The position numbers were made by a program, and so were the translations under genes. Positions 55,843 to 62,523 of a stretch of 64,000 nt of DNA are shown in pieces (position 1 is the first letter of the stretch; the number at the start of each line of letters is the position of its first letter). Under the pieces are notes generated by a model. It saw nothing but the letters and a program-made list of their open reading frames with translations. It was not told the origin of the DNA and searched no databases. Origin of the DNA: a virus (lineage: Duplodnaviria; Caudoviricetes); IMG/VR virus record IMGVR_UViG_2639762784_000001, positions 21,285 to 85,284 of that record. One strand, written 5' to 3'.

Positions 55843-56372
55843 CCGACCGCCCGCCCCTCGAGGACCTGGACGCCGAACCGGAGCCCGCACGCTGGTGCTG
55901 CAACGGCAACGCAGAAGACTGCGCCCTGTGCACCGATCCGAACCCGCCCTACCCGTTCGTCTGCCCCGAGCATCCGCGGACGCCGGACAACGAGCGGATT
56001 GTGGAAGACAAGGCGGAGGAGCGGGCCGCGGCGGAAGCCTACGATCGGGCCCTCCGTACCCCGCCCAGCGCGGAGGCGTGCGCTGCTCTCCGGGAGCGGT
56101 TGACGTCGGGAACGGTCGCTCGCCGGAAGGTTCGCCGACGGACGGCGACCGAAGCGACCGGAGCCGTCTGCACGGTGACCGTGACCGTGCACGCCCCGAC
56201 CGAGGAGAACGCCGCAGCGTGGGCGCAGACGATTAGCGATCTCGTATCTGCCGAGCACGGGCAGGAGATGCGGCTGAACATCCAGATCGACCGCCCGCGG
56301 AAAGCGTGCTGCGGCAAGGACATCGGGCACCACATCTTCTGCCCGACACGCCAGCCCAAGGAGCAGCCGTGA
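55839..56372 (+). CDS. Hypothetical protein
   Basis: ATGA overlap; Cys clusters at both ends. Confidence 0.55.
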   Translation: MTDRPPLEDLDAEPEPARWCCNGNAEDCALCTDPNPPYPFVCPEHPRTPDNERIVEDKAEERAAAEAYDRALRTPPSAEACAALRERLTSGTVARRKVRRRTATEATGAVCTVTVTVHAPTEENAAAWAQTISDLVSAEHGQEMRLNIQIDRPRKACCGKDIGHHIFCPTRQPKEQP

Positions 56373-57013
56373 GCGCCGCGGGTGGGTCCGCGACCCGTGA
56401 GGCTGCCCGCATCCGCAGGAGCGGCCGGAAGGGCGCGTGGGGCCACATCACGGCGTGGGCGGGCATGAACCCGGAAGCCGCCCGCGCGGACGCCACAGCG
56501 GCCCGGTGGGAGTTAGGGGCCCGCGCGGAACGGGCCACCGCACGGCTGGTGCGGCCGCTTTGGTGGCGTGGCTGGCGGATACGGCACGACCTGCGGATGG
56601 CCGGCCGCCGCTTCAACATCGACCACGTGCTCGTGGCGCCGTGCGGGACGGCGGTCGTCGTCGGGGACACCAAACGCTGGCATGCCGGGCGGGCGACGCA
56701 CGCGGTGGGCGGGCGGCTGTTCTGCGAGGCGGAGGACCGACACGGTGAGGCGGAGAAGGCTGCCGGGTACGCGCGGCTCCTCCAGGACGCGCTGGGCCTG
56801 CCCGGGGTGGTGGTGTGGCCGGTACTGATCGTGCACGGGTCCCCGGTGGCGGCGGGCGGGCATGTGCAGGTGGTGGCGGGGGCGGGGGTGGTGCAGGTGG
56901 TGGCCGCGGACCGGGTGCGGGGACTGTTGCGGGGTGCGTCGTCGGGCTGGTCGTGGAGCCGTGCCCGGCGGGTGGCGGCCCGGGTGGACGAGGTACTGCG
57001 CCCCTACCAGTGA
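56369..57013 (+). CDS. NERD (nuclease-related domain) protein
   Basis: GARAERATA..GWRIRHDL..NIDHVLVAP..VGDTKRW; in-frame TTA at 56513. Confidence 0.8.
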   Translation: MSAAGGSATREAARIRRSGRKGAWGHITAWAGMNPEAARADATAARWELGARAERATARLVRPLWWRGWRIRHDLRMAGRRFNIDHVLVAPCGTAVVVGDTKRWHAGRATHAVGGRLFCEAEDRHGEAEKAAGYARLLQDALGLPGVVVWPVLIVHGSPVAAGGHVQVVAGAGVVQVVAADRVRGLLRGASSGWSWSRARRVAARVDEVLRPYQ

Positions 57014-57730: not shown

Positions 57731-58189
57731 ATGCCCGAGAAGACCTACACCGACCCGGCCGGCATGCCTGACGACGAACGCATGACGCCCGCAGAACTCC
57801 GCGTCGTACGCGAGTTCCTAGGCCTGACCCCCGAGTGGCTTGCCGCTCACCTGAACGTGTCCGGGCGGACCGTCCGCCACTGGGAGCAGGGCAAGTACGC
57901 CATCCCTGATGGTGTCCGCCTGGAGATCGAAGACCTGGAGCGGCGCACCGGTGAGTTCGTGTCCGGGGTCATCGACAAGCTGATGGACCTGCCCGACCCG
58001 GCGGTGGTCACCTACCGGGACGACGCCGAATACCGGGCTGCACGCCCGGATGCCGAGTTCCCCGCGTCCTGGCACCGTGCGGTCGTCGCCCGTGTCGCGC
58101 AGGAGGTGCCGGCCCTGTCCATCGCCTACCCGGACGAGGCCGCCACCGGTGCGCCGGCCCAGACCGCGCGGCAGGGGGCGCGGAGGTGA
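57731..58189 (+). CDS. Aca2/YdiL-like (DUF1870) HTH regulator
   Basis: MTPAELRVVREFLGLT..VSGRTVRHWEQG..IPDGV..YRDDAEY..ASWHRAVVARV. Confidence 0.8.
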   Translation: MPEKTYTDPAGMPDDERMTPAELRVVREFLGLTPEWLAAHLNVSGRTVRHWEQGKYAIPDGVRLEIEDLERRTGEFVSGVIDKLMDLPDPAVVTYRDDAEYRAARPDAEFPASWHRAVVARVAQEVPALSIAYPDEAATGAPAQTARQGARR

Positions 58190-58983
58190 CCTGCAAGGCG
58201 CCGACGTCGTCGTGCGGCACCCCCTCCGGGTGGCGGGCCGGTGGGCGCTGCGTGCGCTGCCGTCTCGCCCACAACCACGACACGAGCAGCCGCCGCGGCC
58301 TGACCGACCAGGAGCGTGACACCTTCCTGACCATGCTGCGCGCCGGGAAGACCGTGGAGGAAGCGGCAGAGGGCGCCGGCGTCACCACGAATGCGCTGGC
58401 GCAGGCCGCGCGCCGTGACGGGGAACTGCGGGCCGCCCTGGACGGCATGCCGGTCGGCGTACAGGCCGCGGCGCAGCGCGCCGAGCTGCTGGCCGCCCTG
58501 GTCCGCTGCGGCGGGAACCAGGCCCTCGCCCAGGACCAGGCCGGTCTCCCGCACGGCACCGTCAACAACTGGCGGCAGGCTGATCCGGAGTTCGATGCGG
58601 TGGTGCAGTCGATTCTGGTGTGGCTGGACGCCTCGGAAGGGCGGAACCGCAAGCGGGTCGGGAACCGGATGCATCAGCATGCCGCCCGGTTCCGTGAACT
58701 GTGGATGTCCGGGGCGTCCTACCGGGAGATCGGGGACGAGCTGAGCATCACCCCTGCCACCATCAGTTCCTGGCGCAGGAAGATGGACCTGCCGGCCCGC
58801 AGCACGCCGGTGCTGGACGAGCATGCCGACCGCTTCCGGGAGTTGTGGGAGGCCGGAGCTACTTACGAGGCGATTGCCTCGGAGTTGGGGATCAGTGAGG
58901 CCACCGTCTACCTGTGGCGGTCCCGGCTGGGTCTGCCGTCCCGGCACCGGGTGAAGACCGAGGTCGACGTTTTGAACGCCTGA
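58186..58983 (+). CDS. Multi-HTH DNA-binding protein
   Basis: Repeated RFRELW..GASYREI..ELSI..TI..WR units; N-terminal CVRC. Confidence 0.7.
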   Translation: MTCKAPTSSCGTPSGWRAGGRCVRCRLAHNHDTSSRRGLTDQERDTFLTMLRAGKTVEEAAEGAGVTTNALAQAARRDGELRAALDGMPVGVQAAAQRAELLAALVRCGGNQALAQDQAGLPHGTVNNWRQADPEFDAVVQSILVWLDASEGRNRKRVGNRMHQHAARFRELWMSGASYREIGDELSITPATISSWRRKMDLPARSTPVLDEHADRFRELWEAGATYEAIASELGISEATVYLWRSRLGLPSRHRVKTEVDVLNA

Positions 58984-60226: not shown

Positions 60227-60338
60227 GTCTCCACGGTGCCGGTTTTCCGGTCCGACGTTGCCCCCTCCGGTGCGGGCATGGAGGTGGCCCGGCAGCGCAC
60301 TGGGGGTTTGCTGCCGGGCCGGTCTGAAGGGGGGTGGG

Positions 60339-60572
60339 TTAGCCCCAGGTGGTGTCGTTGGGGGCGACCGGGGCCGTCTCGCCGTCGCCGTCGTCGGCGG
60401 CGTTCTCGTCGTCGTTGTCGGCGGGTGTGGTGCCCCAGGTGGTGTCGCCGGTGGTGGTGGGGGATCCCCACGTGGTGTCCGGTGGCGTGGAGGTTTGAAT
60501 GGTGAGGGCGGTACCGGTGACGGCGGCGGCGATGCTCAGGCCGACGAGGAGGCGGCGGATGCGTTTGGTCAC
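60339..60572 (-). CDS. Secreted propeptide with three DTTWG repeats (candidate signalling peptide precursor)
   Basis: AGAAAGGGA RBS, GTG; basic n-region and hydrophobic h-region; DTTWG at residues 32, 43 and 73 (C-terminus) of 77. Confidence 0.78.
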   Translation of the reverse strand: MTKRIRRLLVGLSIAAAVTGTALTIQTSTPPDTTWGSPTTTGDTTWGTTPADNDDENAADDGDGETAPVAPNDTTWG

Positions 60573-60830
60573 GGCGGGGTCCCTTTCTGTAATTATGGGG
60601 TGCACGATAACGGGGCGCCGTCCCGGTTTTCTCGTACTTGGCGATCCTGCTGCGAGTCCCCTGGTGTGCGCGCGTGTTCTGGCAGTAGACGCGTGCACGG
60701 TGTGGGGAGGATGCGTTGTACGAGCGCCGGGGGACGCCCCACGAACAATCTGCCCTAGTGTGGCTGCACTCTCAACGGTTCGACTTTGCGTATTGATGCA
60801 GTGCGTGTTTACGCAGGCGGGGGGTTTGTT

Positions 60831-61892
60831 TTGACGGGGGATCAAGTTTTGGCCATGGGTGACGCGGTGTGTGATCGGCCGGTTTTGTCTGCGGACGCTG
60901 TGCGCGCGTATGGCCTGATAGTGCAGGGTGAACCGGTACCCGCCGAATGCGCGGACGCCGTGGAGGAGCTCGCCGCCTGGGGTTTCATCGTCACTGGCGG
61001 TGATCACAGAAACCGACCGGTCGCGCTGAATCCCGCCGACGTCGCCCAGCGCCGCATGGACGCCATGCTCACGGAAGCGGCCGCCCGTGTCGCCCAGCTC
61101 AGCGCCCTGCCGAAGGTGACGGAGCAGCTCGCCGGCCAGTACGCGCGGGCACAGTGGACAGCCGGCGCGGGAGCGCAGTACATCGACGACGCGGTGGAGG
61201 TGAATGCCCGTCTGGATGATGTGGTGGCGGGCGCGGGGTGGGAGATCTTGGCCGCGCAGCCCGGGGGGCCACGGGATCGGGCGCAGCTGGAACGTTCCCT
61301 GGCTCGGGATACGGCCGCGTTGGAGCGGGGGGTGTTGAAACGGACCCTGTACATGGTGACGGCTCGGGACAATGCGGCGACCGCCGAATACGTGCGGGCC
61401 ATGTCCTCGAGGGCGGAGTACCGCACTTTGGCTGCCCCGTTCGAGCGTTGCATCGTCGTGGACCGCAGGGTGGCGTTCATCTCCAACCATTTAGTGGAGG
61501 GCGCGCCCGAGCATTCGGCGTGGCAGGTTACGGACCGGGCGATGGTCGCCTACATCTGTGCCGAGTTCGAGGGGAAGTGGCGGCTCGCGGACCCGTGGCA
61601 CGGTGAAATGCGGGGCCGGCAGGTGGAAGTGGACACGATCAGCGCCCCGGGTGCCCCGCGCACCACCAGACGCCAGCGGGAGATCCTGCGCGACCTGGCT
61701 TCGGGGAAGGCTCAGCAGTCGACTGCGGACCGGTTGGGGATCAGCCTGCGGACCCTGACGGGGGAGATCGCGGAGTTGAAGAGTCTGTTCGACGCGGTGT
61801 CGGTGCCGGAACTCACGTACAAGTGGGCGCTGTCGCCCGACCGTGGGGTGGACGACAGCGCACAGGTGTCGGAGGTTCAGGCGGTCGCCTAG
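60831..61892 (+). CDS. Transcriptional regulator: TrmB-like N-terminus, PLD-like sensor domain, C-terminal LuxR HTH
   Basis: EILAAQPGGPR..ALERGV..RTLY..RCIVVDRRVAFI; TRRQREILRDLASG..TADRLGISLRT; in-frame TTA at 61491; start uncertain (TTG 60831 or ATG 60855). Confidence 0.82.
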   Translation: MTGDQVLAMGDAVCDRPVLSADAVRAYGLIVQGEPVPAECADAVEELAAWGFIVTGGDHRNRPVALNPADVAQRRMDAMLTEAAARVAQLSALPKVTEQLAGQYARAQWTAGAGAQYIDDAVEVNARLDDVVAGAGWEILAAQPGGPRDRAQLERSLARDTAALERGVLKRTLYMVTARDNAATAEYVRAMSSRAEYRTLAAPFERCIVVDRRVAFISNHLVEGAPEHSAWQVTDRAMVAYICAEFEGKWRLADPWHGEMRGRQVEVDTISAPGAPRTTRRQREILRDLASGKAQQSTADRLGISLRTLTGEIAELKSLFDAVSVPELTYKWALSPDRGVDDSAQVSEVQAVA

Positions 61893-62161
61893 AGGCGCGG
61901 GGCGATGGCGATGACGTCGTTCCACTCGTCGAGGGCGGGCTGGTGGAAGTTAAGCGGGATCTCTGTCTGCCCGGGGATGACTTCGGGTGGCGGTTGGTCC
62001 AGGACGCTGGCGAGGCTGAGTTGGCGGACGGGCTTGGTGCGCGGGCGGCGCTGCTTGGGTGGTGTGAGGCCGAGGCGTTGTGCGCAGATGGGCCCGTATC
62101 CGGTGGGGGTGGGGTGTTTCATGGCCCGTTTGCAGCCCTGGCACTCAAGACGGCCGGTCAT
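61889..62161 (-). CDS. Small Zn-binding hypothetical protein
   Basis: CQGCKR..GYGPICAQRLG. Confidence 0.6.
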   Translation of the reverse strand: MTGRLECQGCKRAMKHPTPTGYGPICAQRLGLTPPKQRRPRTKPVRQLSLASVLDQPPPEVIPGQTEIPLNFHQPALDEWNDVIAIAPRL

Positions 62162-62523
62162 GAGGCCGTCTTGGCCGCCAGCTCGAGCAGCACGTCGACG
62201 TGACAGGGAAGTTCCAGCGGGCACCAGCACATGAGGTCCCGGCCGCGCAGTTCGACACGGGCCCGGGGAGTGAAGCCGACGGTCCGTTCGGCGAACTCGC
62301 GGTAGAGACCGACGGCCATTACGTGGGCGGCGTGCTGGCTGCTGGTGCTCACTGTCCAGTCGGGCCGGGACACACCCTCACCGGCCCAGTTGACGGCCCA
62401 GCCGGTGCGGGGCTGAGCAACGACCCACGGGTTACCCCAGCGGGTTCCGCGGCCGACGTACACGGTTCCTTCGGGCTTGCGCCAGCCCTTGGTGCGCTTG
62501 CGCTGGATTCGGGTGGGCTTCAC
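62158..62523 (-). CDS. DUF4326 family protein
   Basis: RIQRKRTKGWRKP..YVGRGTRWGNPW..ELRGRDLMCWCP..CHVDVLLELA. Confidence 0.85.
   Translation of the reverse strand: MKPTRIQRKRTKGWRKPEGTVYVGRGTRWGNPWVVAQPRTGWAVNWAGEGVSRPDWTVSTSSQHAAHVMAVGLYREFAERTVGFTPRARVELRGRDLMCWCPLELPCHVDVLLELAAKTAS

What the first reader, a model, noticed from the sequence alone, without database searches (positions are those of the whole stretch)
60339..61892. Candidate peptide communication system: secreted 3xDTTWG propeptide divergent from a TrmB/PLD-like-LuxR receptor-regulator
Seen: a 77-aa minus-strand gene hidden at the 3' end of a spurious long ORF, with its own RBS. It has a Sec-type signal (MTKRIRR + LLVGLSIAAAVTGTAL) and three exact copies of DTTWG, the last at the C-terminus, separated by low-complexity Thr/Pro/acidic spacers. 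It is divergent, across about 260 bp, from a regulator with a PLD-like central domain and a LuxR HTH. Known: Firmicute RRNPP/arbitrium systems use this logic (exported propeptide, short mature peptide often C-terminal, adjacent cytoplasmic receptor) but with TPR receptors. Inference: this is a non-RRNPP analogue in which a Trp-containing pentapeptide is exported, processed, re-imported and sensed by the PLD-like domain to set lysis versus plasmid lysogeny or transfer. I know of no characterised actinophage example.
Basis: partly seen in the sequence, partly recalled or inferred. Interest (0 to 1): 0.92.

Follow-up and report, generated by a model that had tools for sequence, protein, structure and literature searches.

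The report
Secreted DTTWG-repeat peptide and paired regulator
A Streptomyces phage-plasmid carries a tiny gene for an exported peptide with three DTTWG units back-to-back with an unusual regulator; this pairing recurs across the genus and looks like an undescribed, still untested, peptide signalling system.

Summary
Window 60339-60572 (-) encodes a 77-aa precursor with a signal-peptide-like N-terminus and three exact DTTWG units, the last at the C-terminus. It is divergent from a regulator (60855/60831-61892, +) with a TrmB-type N-terminus, a PLD-like middle domain lacking the HKD motif, and a LuxR-type HTH.

The pairing is not chance. 56 of 96 regulator-centred Streptomyces loci have a divergent small exported ORF with D-x-x-W repeats 37-437 bp away. 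So do 9 of 11 plasmid records inspected, phage Chymera, and 13 of 13 IMG/VR contigs. The same detector finds only 3 repeat-bearing ORFs in the whole 7.5-Mb host genome, 2 of them real.

Within a precursor the D-x-x-W unit is copied exactly (54 of 62), while 23 unit types exist between loci. No enzyme or transporter neighbour is conserved.

Peptide signal plus cytoplasmic receptor is the best reading (about 0.5). Control of lysis versus lysogeny is speculation.

A conserved, probably structured leader precedes the peptide gene.

The scan met this family on other genomes more than fifteen times. Seven literature searches found no description.

The parts
60339..60572 (-). Gene for the 77-aa exported precursor: signal-peptide-like N-terminus, then three DTTWG units (the last at the C-terminus) separated by Thr/Pro/acidic spacers
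   Evidence: The family is conserved. RefSeq annotates the homologues as 'hypothetical protein'.
60286..60320 (-). Inverted repeat (11-bp GC-rich stems, 13-nt loop) 19 nt after the peptide stop codon. It is a possible terminator or attenuator without a T-run.
   Evidence: Read by eye. The consensus terminator scan does not list it, because its loop is longer than 8 nt and it has no T-run. Its conservation was not tested.
60611..60741 (-). Conserved, probably structured 5' leader of the peptide mRNA. P1 pairs 60733-60741 with 60611-60619. P2 pairs 60720-60724 with 60631-60635. P3 pairs 60682-60689 with 60646-60653. It ends 38 nt before the GTG.
   Evidence: Alignments A2 and A5. Pair counts are, the covariance model R1, and coordinates. 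Rfam gave no match. The conserved blocks could also be DNA sites.
60787..60815 (.). Two adjacent operator-like palindromes of the form TGCG-N6-CGCA (the first imperfect), 15-45 bp before the regulator's TTG
   Evidence: Conserved in 11 of 11 aligned phage-plasmid intergenic regions. The chromosomal clade has a different palindrome (TCCTG-N6-CAGGA) at the matching place. There is no other tandem copy in the window.
60855..61892 (+). Regulator: TrmB-type winged HTH and long helix, PLD-like domain without HKD, and a C-terminal LuxR/GerE HTH. An alternative TTG start lies at 60831. There is an in-frame TTA codon at 61491-61493.
   Evidence: The TTA frame was worked out.

Best explanation
This is a self-contained two-gene cassette on a pZL12-like phage-plasmid.

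Proposed mechanism:
1. The small gene makes a Sec-exported precursor.
2. Extracellular processing releases up to three copies of a short acidic Trp peptide, with core D-T-T-W and probably DTTWG.
3. The divergent cytoplasmic regulator (TrmB-like DNA-binding and dimerisation part, non-catalytic PLD-like ligand domain, LuxR HTH) senses the peptide after re-uptake.
4. The regulator acts on palindromes in the shared intergenic region, which gives density-dependent feedback.

Shown: the gene pair, the regulator's fold, the conserved pairing and orientation, the exact copying of the unit within a precursor, and the conserved non-coding elements.

Inferred: export, processing, uptake, binding of the peptide by the PLD-like domain, binding of the palindromes by this regulator, and any downstream output.
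For: 1. Pairing in Streptomyces genomes. Regulator relatives (E<=1e-20) occur in 302 of 401 sampled genomes. Of the 96 best-scoring loci, 62 have a candidate peptide ORF. In 56 of these it is divergent and 37-437 bp from the regulator. From the background rate of 0.0049 per kb, about 3-4 hits anywhere in roughly 0.7 Mb would be expected. That expectation is my own arithmetic.

2. Pairing on mobile elements. 9 of 11 plasmid records inspected, and phage Chymera, carry the pair. In Chymera it sits next to the integrase and immunity repressor. All 13 IMG/VR contigs found through the leader motif carry the peptide gene.

3. The short unit is the thing conserved. Among 73 distinct precursors, 62 have two or more copies, and 54 of those 62 repeat exactly the same D-x-x-W. 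There are 23 unit types between loci. In 52 of 73 the last unit ends within 1 residue of the C-terminus. In the phage-plasmid clade 23 of 24 precursors end exactly in D[ST]xWG. Internal copies are followed by Pro at +2 in 21 of 33 cases, and the last copy is preceded by Pro at -2 in 18 of 23. The three copies in the window differ at synonymous sites.

4. The regulator has a ligand-type domain. It shares the PLD-like fold with the first subdomain of the TrmB sugar-binding domain. HKD is absent in 74 of 74 paired regulators.

5. The cassette is self-contained. No enzyme, transporter or peptidase neighbour is conserved across 56 loci, and the flanking genes are mosaic among relatives.

6. Each clade has its own operator-like palindrome beside the regulator start.

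7. The same genome holds a second system with a different unit: DSSWG x5 next to two paralogous regulators.

8. In another actinobacterial genus, 3 of 3 loci have a divergent small exported ORF ending in ILDIG, VLDID or IFDIG (x2).

9. There is a weak co-evolution signal. Sister pairs whose unit changed show relatively more divergence in the PLD-like domain: median ratio 0.96 versus 0.66, p=0.0025, for 9 versus 11 pairs.
Against: - There is no experimental or expression evidence.
- The co-evolution signal shrank when 10 more pairs were added (0.98 versus 0.75, p=0.034). The two phage-plasmid pairs with changed units (L119/L143, L127/L135) show no excess. The contrast is therefore largely chromosomal clade versus phage-plasmid clade.
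- Mutual information with unit positions 2 and 3 is not enriched in the PLD-like domain (p=0.27 and 0.15).
- 40 of 96 regulator loci lack a convincing peptide. These include L039, which is 62% identical, and a whole 40-47% clade that instead sits next to an HTH gene.
- 0 of 17 non-Streptomyces loci have a D-x-x-W peptide.
- No output was found. There is no further tandem palindrome in the 64-kb window and no conserved downstream gene.
- From recall, characterised TrmB proteins bind sugars. The ligand could therefore be a small molecule.
- An earlier scan note on the same family (e1-2912349) is marked 'its bold reading fell' on a later check. The reason was not given.
Confidence: 0.5

Rival explanations
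1. Regulator plus regulated secreted effector. The regulator senses something else, for example a sugar or metabolite as TrmB proteins do, and merely switches on the neighbouring gene. The exported repeat peptide then acts outside the cell, for example on the wall, on another cell or on a phage receptor. It is not the regulator's ligand.
For: - Divergent regulator-target pairs are co-inherited, which alone would explain the conserved pairing.
- The co-evolution tests were weak or null.
- Many family members have no peptide.
- The sensor fold matches a sugar-binding domain.
Against: - The conserved entity is a 4-5 residue unit copied exactly within a precursor but differing between loci. It has processing-like flanks. 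That is typical of released short peptides rather than a folded effector.
- There is no conserved partner gene.
- Two different units coexist in one genome.
Confidence: 0.22
2. A real peptide signal, but sensed elsewhere. The peptide is a signal or pheromone detected by a membrane sensor or another receptor encoded at a different place. The adjacent regulator only controls its production.
For: - The repeat and flank features are the same as for the best explanation.
- There is no solid evidence of co-variation with the adjacent regulator.
- Chromosomal loci carry 2-4 tandem regulator paralogues per peptide gene, so a one-to-one cognate relation is not obvious.
Against: No sensor kinase or other receptor gene is conserved near the pair in 56 loci. 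The cassette also moves as a two-gene unit between phages, plasmids and chromosomes.
Confidence: 0.12
3. Multi-core precursor of a modified (RiPP-like) Trp peptide. The repeated units would be cores that enzymes encoded elsewhere modify, for example at the Trp. The product could be an antibiotic or a signal.
For: Multi-copy core peptides with conserved flanks. NCBIfam gives a far sub-threshold hit of the N-terminus to a RiPP precursor model (TIGR04081, 16.5 bits against a cut-off of 30.5).
Against: - No modifying enzyme is conserved beside the gene in 56 loci, nor among phage-plasmid relatives.
- The N-terminus looks like a Sec signal rather than a RiPP leader.
- The NCBIfam hit covers only the hydrophobic N-terminus.
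Confidence: 0.08
4. No function for the peptide ORF: a chance or decaying ORF upstream of an ordinary LuxR-type regulator.
For: The ORF is short, low in complexity and starts with GTG. It has no family match in Pfam, NCBIfam (above cut-off) or PHROGs.
Against: - The genome-wide background gives 3 repeat-bearing hits in 7.5 Mb, against 56 of 96 loci with the pair.
- The repeat is kept through synonymous changes.
- Independent annotation pipelines call the homologues as genes.
Confidence: 0.03

Closest known systems
Arbitrium (AimR-AimP-AimX) of Bacillus SPbeta-like phages, and the wider RRNPP(A) peptide quorum-sensing systems
   Same: A mobile element carries a small Sec-type propeptide gene next to a cytoplasmic transcription factor. 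The short unit lies at the C-terminus of the precursor. Unit types differ between elements. In phage Chymera the pair sits beside the integrase and immunity repressor. The details of the arbitrium mechanism come from recall and from abstracts in the listings.
   Different: The receptor has no TPR domain. It has a TrmB-like / PLD-like / LuxR architecture. The genes are divergent, not co-directional. The host phylum is Actinomycetota. No aimX-like output was found. Binding, uptake and any effect on lysogeny are untested.
Phage-borne Rap-Phr systems with tandemly duplicated pheromones in one propeptide (PMC11343458, abstract read)
   Same: Several copies of the putative mature peptide lie in one exported precursor, and the system is carried by temperate phages.
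   Different: Rap receptors are TPR proteins of Bacillota. Here there are up to 7 exact D-x-x-W copies per precursor, and the paired protein is unrelated.
TrmB / TrmBL2 family of archaeal and bacterial regulators (PDB 3qph, 2f5t, 5box)
   Same: The N-terminal winged HTH, the long helix and the PLD-like domain all match, by profile (E 1.7e-9) and by fold (9.2e-13).
   Different: A LuxR/GerE HTH takes the place of the C-terminal part of the TrmB effector domain. That TrmB binds sugars and that TrmBL2 is a chromatin protein come from recall and from the PDB titles. No peptide ligand is known to me for this family.
LuxR-family regulators (NarL/GerE C-terminal HTH; LuxR 'solos')
   Same: The C-terminal four-helix HTH matches (NarL E 4.3e-10). 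Peptide-less family members resemble orphan receptors.
   Different: There is no autoinducer-binding domain and no receiver domain (Pfam). The N-terminal two thirds of the protein are TrmB-like.

Membership tests
RRNPP / arbitrium peptide signalling | Cytoplasmic receptor built of TPR repeats | tested here: not met
   The profile and fold searches give TrmBL2/TrmB, PLD-like and NarL-type domains only. Pfam shows no TPR.
RRNPP / arbitrium peptide signalling | Adjacent small gene for a Sec-exported propeptide, with the mature peptide near the C-terminus | tested here: inconclusive
   Adjacency and a C-terminal unit are met. Export rests on a basic N-region and a hydrophobic stretch only, because no signal-peptide predictor was available. 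The mature peptide is unknown.
RRNPP / arbitrium peptide signalling | Re-import by an oligopeptide permease and direct binding to the receptor | not testable with these tools
The indirect co-evolution tests were weak.
TrmB family | N-terminal winged HTH, dimerisation helix and PLD-like first subdomain of the effector domain | tested here: met
   TrmBL2 5box at E 1.7e-9 over profile positions 30-249. Foldseek gives TrmBL2 at 9.2e-13, TrmB 3qph at 1.3e-8 and 2f5t at 5.2e-5.
TrmB family | C-terminal second subdomain of the sugar-binding domain | tested here: not met
   Residues from about 280 onwards are a GerE/NarL-type HTH.
Phospholipase D superfamily enzymes | Catalytic HxK(x)4D motif | tested here: not met
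   0 of 74 paired regulators have the motif, and 1 of 93 sequences in A1 has a match. The fold is nevertheless PLD-like.
LuxR-type acyl-homoserine-lactone receptors | N-terminal autoinducer-binding domain | tested here: not met
   Pfam finds none. NCBIfam hits cover only the C-terminal HTH and are far below their cut-offs.
RiPP precursor | Modifying enzyme genes clustered with the precursor | tested here: not met
   No conserved neighbour apart from regulators in 56 loci. Flanks are mosaic in phage-plasmids. PHROGs finds nothing for 6 flanking ORFs.

The most novel reading that the evidence does not exclude
This would be a family of gene-encoded peptide communication systems in Actinomycetota, with a receptor unrelated to RRNPP proteins (a TrmB-like regulator whose non-catalytic PLD-like domain binds a D-x-x-W peptide). 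Phage-plasmids and temperate phages would carry it to set their life-cycle decisions (lysis, plasmid lysogeny or transfer). Host chromosomes would carry it for their own density sensing. A clade-specific structured leader RNA would add a second control layer, and there would be scope for cross-talk between the element's DTTWG and the host's DSSWG.
Probability: 0.15. Interest if true: 0.92.

Novelty: new variant of a known kind. Interest (0 to 1): 0.72.

Why it matters
Cell-to-cell signalling in Streptomyces and other Actinomycetota is described as based on small molecules; the introduction of PMC10075063 says so (passage read). Phage peptide communication is characterised in Bacillota.

A widespread exported-peptide and regulator cassette would be directly testable with a synthetic pentapeptide. 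The regulator family has 1,636 clusters at E<=1e-30 among 1.84 billion representatives. The cassette sits on Streptomyces chromosomes, plasmids, phage-plasmids and a phage.

If it signals, it adds a new receptor fold to peptide quorum sensing. It would also open phage-host and phage-phage communication in antibiotic-producing bacteria.

If it does not signal, the repeat peptide is still an unexplained, strongly conserved secreted product of mobile elements.

Tried and rejected
Searches that gave nothing useful:
- a word-indexed homology search with the peptide found only 4 proteins, so the peptide family had to be collected through the regulator.
- no sequencing run was listed for the stretch, and no RNA holder was listed.
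- Rfam gave no match at E<=1.
- PHROGs found nothing for the peptide, the regulator or six flanking ORFs.
- the palindrome patterns are no more frequent in the window than in shuffles, so I could not define a regulon.

Co-evolution tests:
- the sister-pair contrast of the PLD-like domain against the rest of the protein looked significant at first. It weakened with more pairs and is confounded by clade.
- mutual information with unit positions 2 and 3 is not enriched in the PLD-like domain. The recurring columns (residues about 152-155 and 248-259) are only candidates. I could not map them in three dimensions because model coordinates are not returned.

Leader RNA:
- the structure chosen automatically for model R1 did not exceed shuffles (41/500). 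The structure I favour comes from the RNAalifold run on A2 and was counted.
- the regular expression mis-assigned several 3' partners. It was replaced by the anchored version.

Signal-peptidase site:
- my rule for a cleavage site directly before the first unit was too loose to be meaningful (44 of 73 passed). I use only the observation that 9 of 73 precursors have the first unit at residues 23-26.

Literature: seven searches. I saw only listings with titles and the starts of abstracts, three passages of PMC10075063 and the abstract and outline of PMC11343458. None describes this pair. Supplements are closed, so candidate lists in the supplements of PMC10075063 could hold related systems that I could not see.

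Rows dropped from the counts:
- L014, L053, L070, L072, L087 and L088 were dropped from the 62 loci with a candidate peptide ORF, leaving 56. The reasons were a doubtful ORF, a distance over 500 bp, or non-divergent orientation.
- L027 was left out of alignments because of an internal stop.
- L126 was left out of the regulator set because its regulator is split.
- L132 and L137 have no regulator on the stored piece.
- L162 (unpublished genome G621) was not read.
Full report
**What is in the window.**
The minus-strand ORF 60339-60572 starts with GTG, and AAAGGGA lies 7 nt upstream of it. It encodes 77 residues: a basic N-terminus, a 17-residue uncharged hydrophobic stretch, and a Thr/Pro/acidic region holding three exact DTTWG units. 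The last unit is followed directly by the stop codon. The ORF is the tail of a 383-aa frame that runs antisense through the neighbouring gene, which explains why it looks hidden. The three units use different synonymous codons, so the repeat is maintained at the protein level. Nineteen nt after the stop lies an 11-bp GC-rich inverted repeat, 60286-60320. I read this, and the terminator scan does not list it.

The divergent gene runs to 61892. It starts at 60831 (TTG) or, as in the gene call on record for this contig (345 aa), at 60855 (ATG).

**The regulator.**
Pfam alone gives only a sub-threshold GerE match. I aligned 93 relatives (A1). The profile matches the NarL C-terminal domain (E 4.3e-10) and the archaeal TrmBL2 protein (E 1.7e-9, positions 30-249) among solved structures. 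The AlphaFold2 model is confident, with mean pLDDT 89.2. By Foldseek it resembles TrmBL2 (9.2e-13), TrmB (1.3e-8), PLD-family nucleases such as Nuc (8.8e-6) and the isolated TrmB sugar-binding domain (5.2e-5).

The catalytic HxK(x)4D motif of PLD enzymes is absent in 74 of 74 paired regulators. The middle domain is best seen as a non-catalytic, ligand-type domain.

**The element.**
The window encodes a tape-measure protein, tail proteins and an endolysin. It also carries a ParA/ParB region that is 76.6% identical to Streptomyces phage ZL12. It shares segments with 86-94 kb Streptomyces plasmids such as pSAM1. It is thus a pZL12-like phage-plasmid.

The cassette appears to be accessory in this group. 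Phage ZL12 gave no regulator match at E<=1e-10. The S. leeuwenhoekii and S. seoulensis plasmids listed are not among the regulator matches.

**Is the pairing more than chance?**
Regulator relatives (E<=1e-20) occur in 302 of 401 sampled Streptomyces genomes. I fetched the 96 best-scoring loci, with flanks of 1.5 to 6 kb. I scanned them with a simple detector: a signal-peptide-like start, GC3 of at least 0.7, and [DEN]xxW either repeated or within 8 residues of the C-terminus.

Sixty-two loci had a candidate, and 59 of these were divergent from the regulator. After dropping six doubtful ones, 56 remain. All 56 are divergent and lie 37-437 bp from the regulator.

The same detector finds 37 ORFs in the entire 7.5-Mb genome of the window. 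Only 3 of them have a repeated unit, and 2 of those 3 are real members of this family.

The pair is also present in 9 of 11 plasmid records inspected and in phage Chymera. In Chymera it lies beside the integrase and immunity repressor. RefSeq and GenBank annotate the small gene as a hypothetical protein.

**What is conserved in the peptide.**
I compared 73 distinct precursors. Sixty-two have two to seven copies of a D-x-x-W unit. In 54 of those 62 every copy is the same four residues, although 23 different units occur between loci. In 52 of 73 the last unit ends within one residue of the C-terminus. The fifth residue is usually Gly, but it can vary within a precursor.

In the phage-plasmid clade (24 distinct precursors) the unit is D[ST]xWG with x = T, A, G, H or W. 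Twenty-three of the 24 end exactly in it. Internal copies are followed by a small residue and then Pro (Pro at +2 in 21 of 33). The last copy is preceded by Pro at -2 (18 of 23) and Leu at -1 (15 of 23). In 9 of 73 precursors the first unit begins at residues 23-26, directly after the hydrophobic stretch.

This is the pattern expected of a precursor that releases several copies of one short peptide. It is known from phage Rap-Phr systems (PMC11343458, abstract).

**Is the cassette self-contained?**
Clustering of neighbouring ORFs from 56 loci found no enzyme, transporter or peptidase shared beyond one syntenic chromosomal clade. I did not annotate those clade-specific clusters. Among phage-plasmid relatives the genes on both sides are mosaic, and PHROGs recognises none of the six flanking ORFs I tested. 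This argues against a RiPP cluster. It also means that I found no output gene.

**Non-coding elements.**
The intergenic region is better conserved than the proteins it separates. Next to the regulator start lie two palindromes of the form TGCG-N6-CGCA (60787-60815). The chromosomal clade has a different palindrome, TCCTG-N6-CAGGA, at the matching place. This fits clade-specific operators. No further tandem copy occurs in the window.

Between the palindromes and the peptide start, on the peptide-sense strand, lies a block of about 131 nt (60611-60741) whose invariant segments can pair.
- On 11 aligned sequences the proposed helices are 97.2% paired, against 38-57% when partners are slid.
- Their covariation score (0.119) exceeded all 500 shuffles. 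The tool warns that related sequences can do this without any structure.
- In 24 distinct sequences one pair of helix P2 reads U-A 17 times, C-G 5 times, U-G twice and C-A never. The pair switches between close relatives (L125/L126 and L134/L136).
- All one-sided changes in helices P1 and P3 are U-A to U-G, which pair only on this strand.
- The structure chosen automatically for my covariance model did not beat shuffles.
- Rfam has no match.
- The model finds the element in 25 of 25 phage-plasmid loci and in none of the other 90 sources searched.
- A pattern scan for its most conserved block found 13 IMG/VR contigs of 65-93 kb. Every one has a D-x-x-WG peptide gene immediately downstream.

I therefore regard a structured leader of the peptide mRNA as likely in this clade. 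An earlier scan note (e1-6094367) proposed the same. The blocks could also be DNA sites.

**Does the regulator sense the peptide?**
This is the weak point. I compared phylogenetically independent sister pairs of regulators. In the first set, pairs whose peptide unit differs showed relatively more divergence in the PLD-like domain than pairs with the same unit (median ratio 0.96 versus 0.66, one-sided Mann-Whitney p=0.0025, 9 versus 11 pairs).

With ten more pairs the contrast fell to 0.98 versus 0.75 (p=0.034). The two phage-plasmid pairs with changed units showed no excess, so clade is a confounder.

Mutual information between regulator columns and unit positions 2 and 3 was not enriched in the PLD-like domain (p=0.27 and 0.15).

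Binding therefore remains an inference from architecture and linkage.

**Limits of the family.**
- Forty of 96 regulator loci have no convincing peptide. These include a 62%-identical relative (L039) and a 40-47% clade that sits next to an HTH gene. In two annotated plasmids this clade also lies next to a DUF4344 metallopeptidase.
- Across the phylum, 29 of 401 sampled genomes have a family member at E<=1e-25: the window's own genome, 10 of 10 other Streptomyces, and 18 genomes of 15 other genera. The tally includes one unpublished genome, G621.
- None of the 17 non-Streptomyces loci I read has a D-x-x-W peptide. However, three loci of one genus have a divergent small exported ORF ending in ILDIG, VLDID or IFDIG (twice). 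This suggests that the regulator-plus-exported-peptide logic is older than the Trp unit.
- The profile finds 1,636 clusters at E<=1e-30 among 1.84 billion representative proteins.

**The host's own system.**
The same genome has three further family regulators. One is an orphan (contig C63). Two are adjacent on C75, and one of these is divergent from a precursor with five DSSWG units. Element and host therefore carry related but distinct units.

**Verdict.**
The best reading is an exported multi-copy peptide signal with its cytoplasmic receptor-regulator (about 0.5).

The main rival is a regulator that merely controls a secreted effector and senses something else (about 0.2). The claim that the cassette sets lysis versus plasmid lysogeny or transfer has no support beyond its location on temperate elements.

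The scan has met this family on other genomes more than fifteen times. Seven literature searches found no description of it.

Noticed in passing
window 61491-61493: There is an in-frame TTA (Leu) codon in the regulator. It is codon 221 counted from the TTG at 60831, and the preceding codon is CAT. In Streptomyces, TTA depends on the bldA tRNA (recalled), so translation of the regulator may be tied to host development. I did not check whether relatives keep it.
   Followed up: partly
own genome G000:C75:317836-320215 (outside the window): A second, chromosomal system lies here. Two adjacent paralogous regulators (about 31% identical to the window's) are followed by a divergent precursor with five DSSWG units. 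A further orphan regulator lies on C63:65607-66263.
   Followed up: partly
loci L061, L074, L078, L093, L095, L096, L102, L107 and others: Chromosomal loci of one syntenic clade carry 2-4 tandem regulator paralogues beside a single multi-copy precursor with a conserved signal peptide (MLRSVLVAAFSA...). Eight of these loci lie near genes resembling dnaJ/hspR, judged by eye from the example sequences.
   Followed up: partly
L164, L167, L168 (three genomes of one non-Streptomyces genus, handles G520, G740, G534): Distant family regulators here are divergent from small signal-peptide ORFs ending in ILDIG, VLDID or IFDIG (the last twice in one precursor). This is a different short C-terminal unit without Trp.
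   Followed up: no
L040-L045, L128, L130: A regulator clade 40-47% identical to the window's has no D-x-x-W peptide. It is divergent from a roughly 199-aa protein annotated as containing a helix-turn-helix domain. In two plasmids a DUF4344 metallopeptidase follows it.
   Followed up: partly
L010:2809-3045: The closest sampled relative's precursor has two DTTWG units but continues into an unrelated 30-residue tail instead of ending in a third unit. This may be a frameshift or loss of the C-terminal copy.
   Followed up: no
window 57731-58189 and 58186-58983: An Aca2/YdiL-like HTH protein (Pfam E 4.1e-8) is followed by a 265-aa protein with several HTH motifs. These two regulators lie just upstream of the small-gene block that ends at the peptide gene.
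   Followed up: no
window 56306-57013: A homologue of this ORF lies within a few kb of the cassette in 12 of the 25 related loci compared. RefSeq labels the homologues NERD or nuclease-related domain proteins.
   Followed up: no
window 62158-62523: A DUF4326 protein (Pfam E 1.4e-18) lies downstream of the regulator on the opposite strand. It is also present near the cassette in pSAM1.
   Followed up: no
L127, L129, L138, L141 (phage-plasmid relatives): Single precursors here mix two units that differ at position 3 (DTGWG with DTAWG or DTTWG). This could broaden or shift specificity.
   Followed up: no
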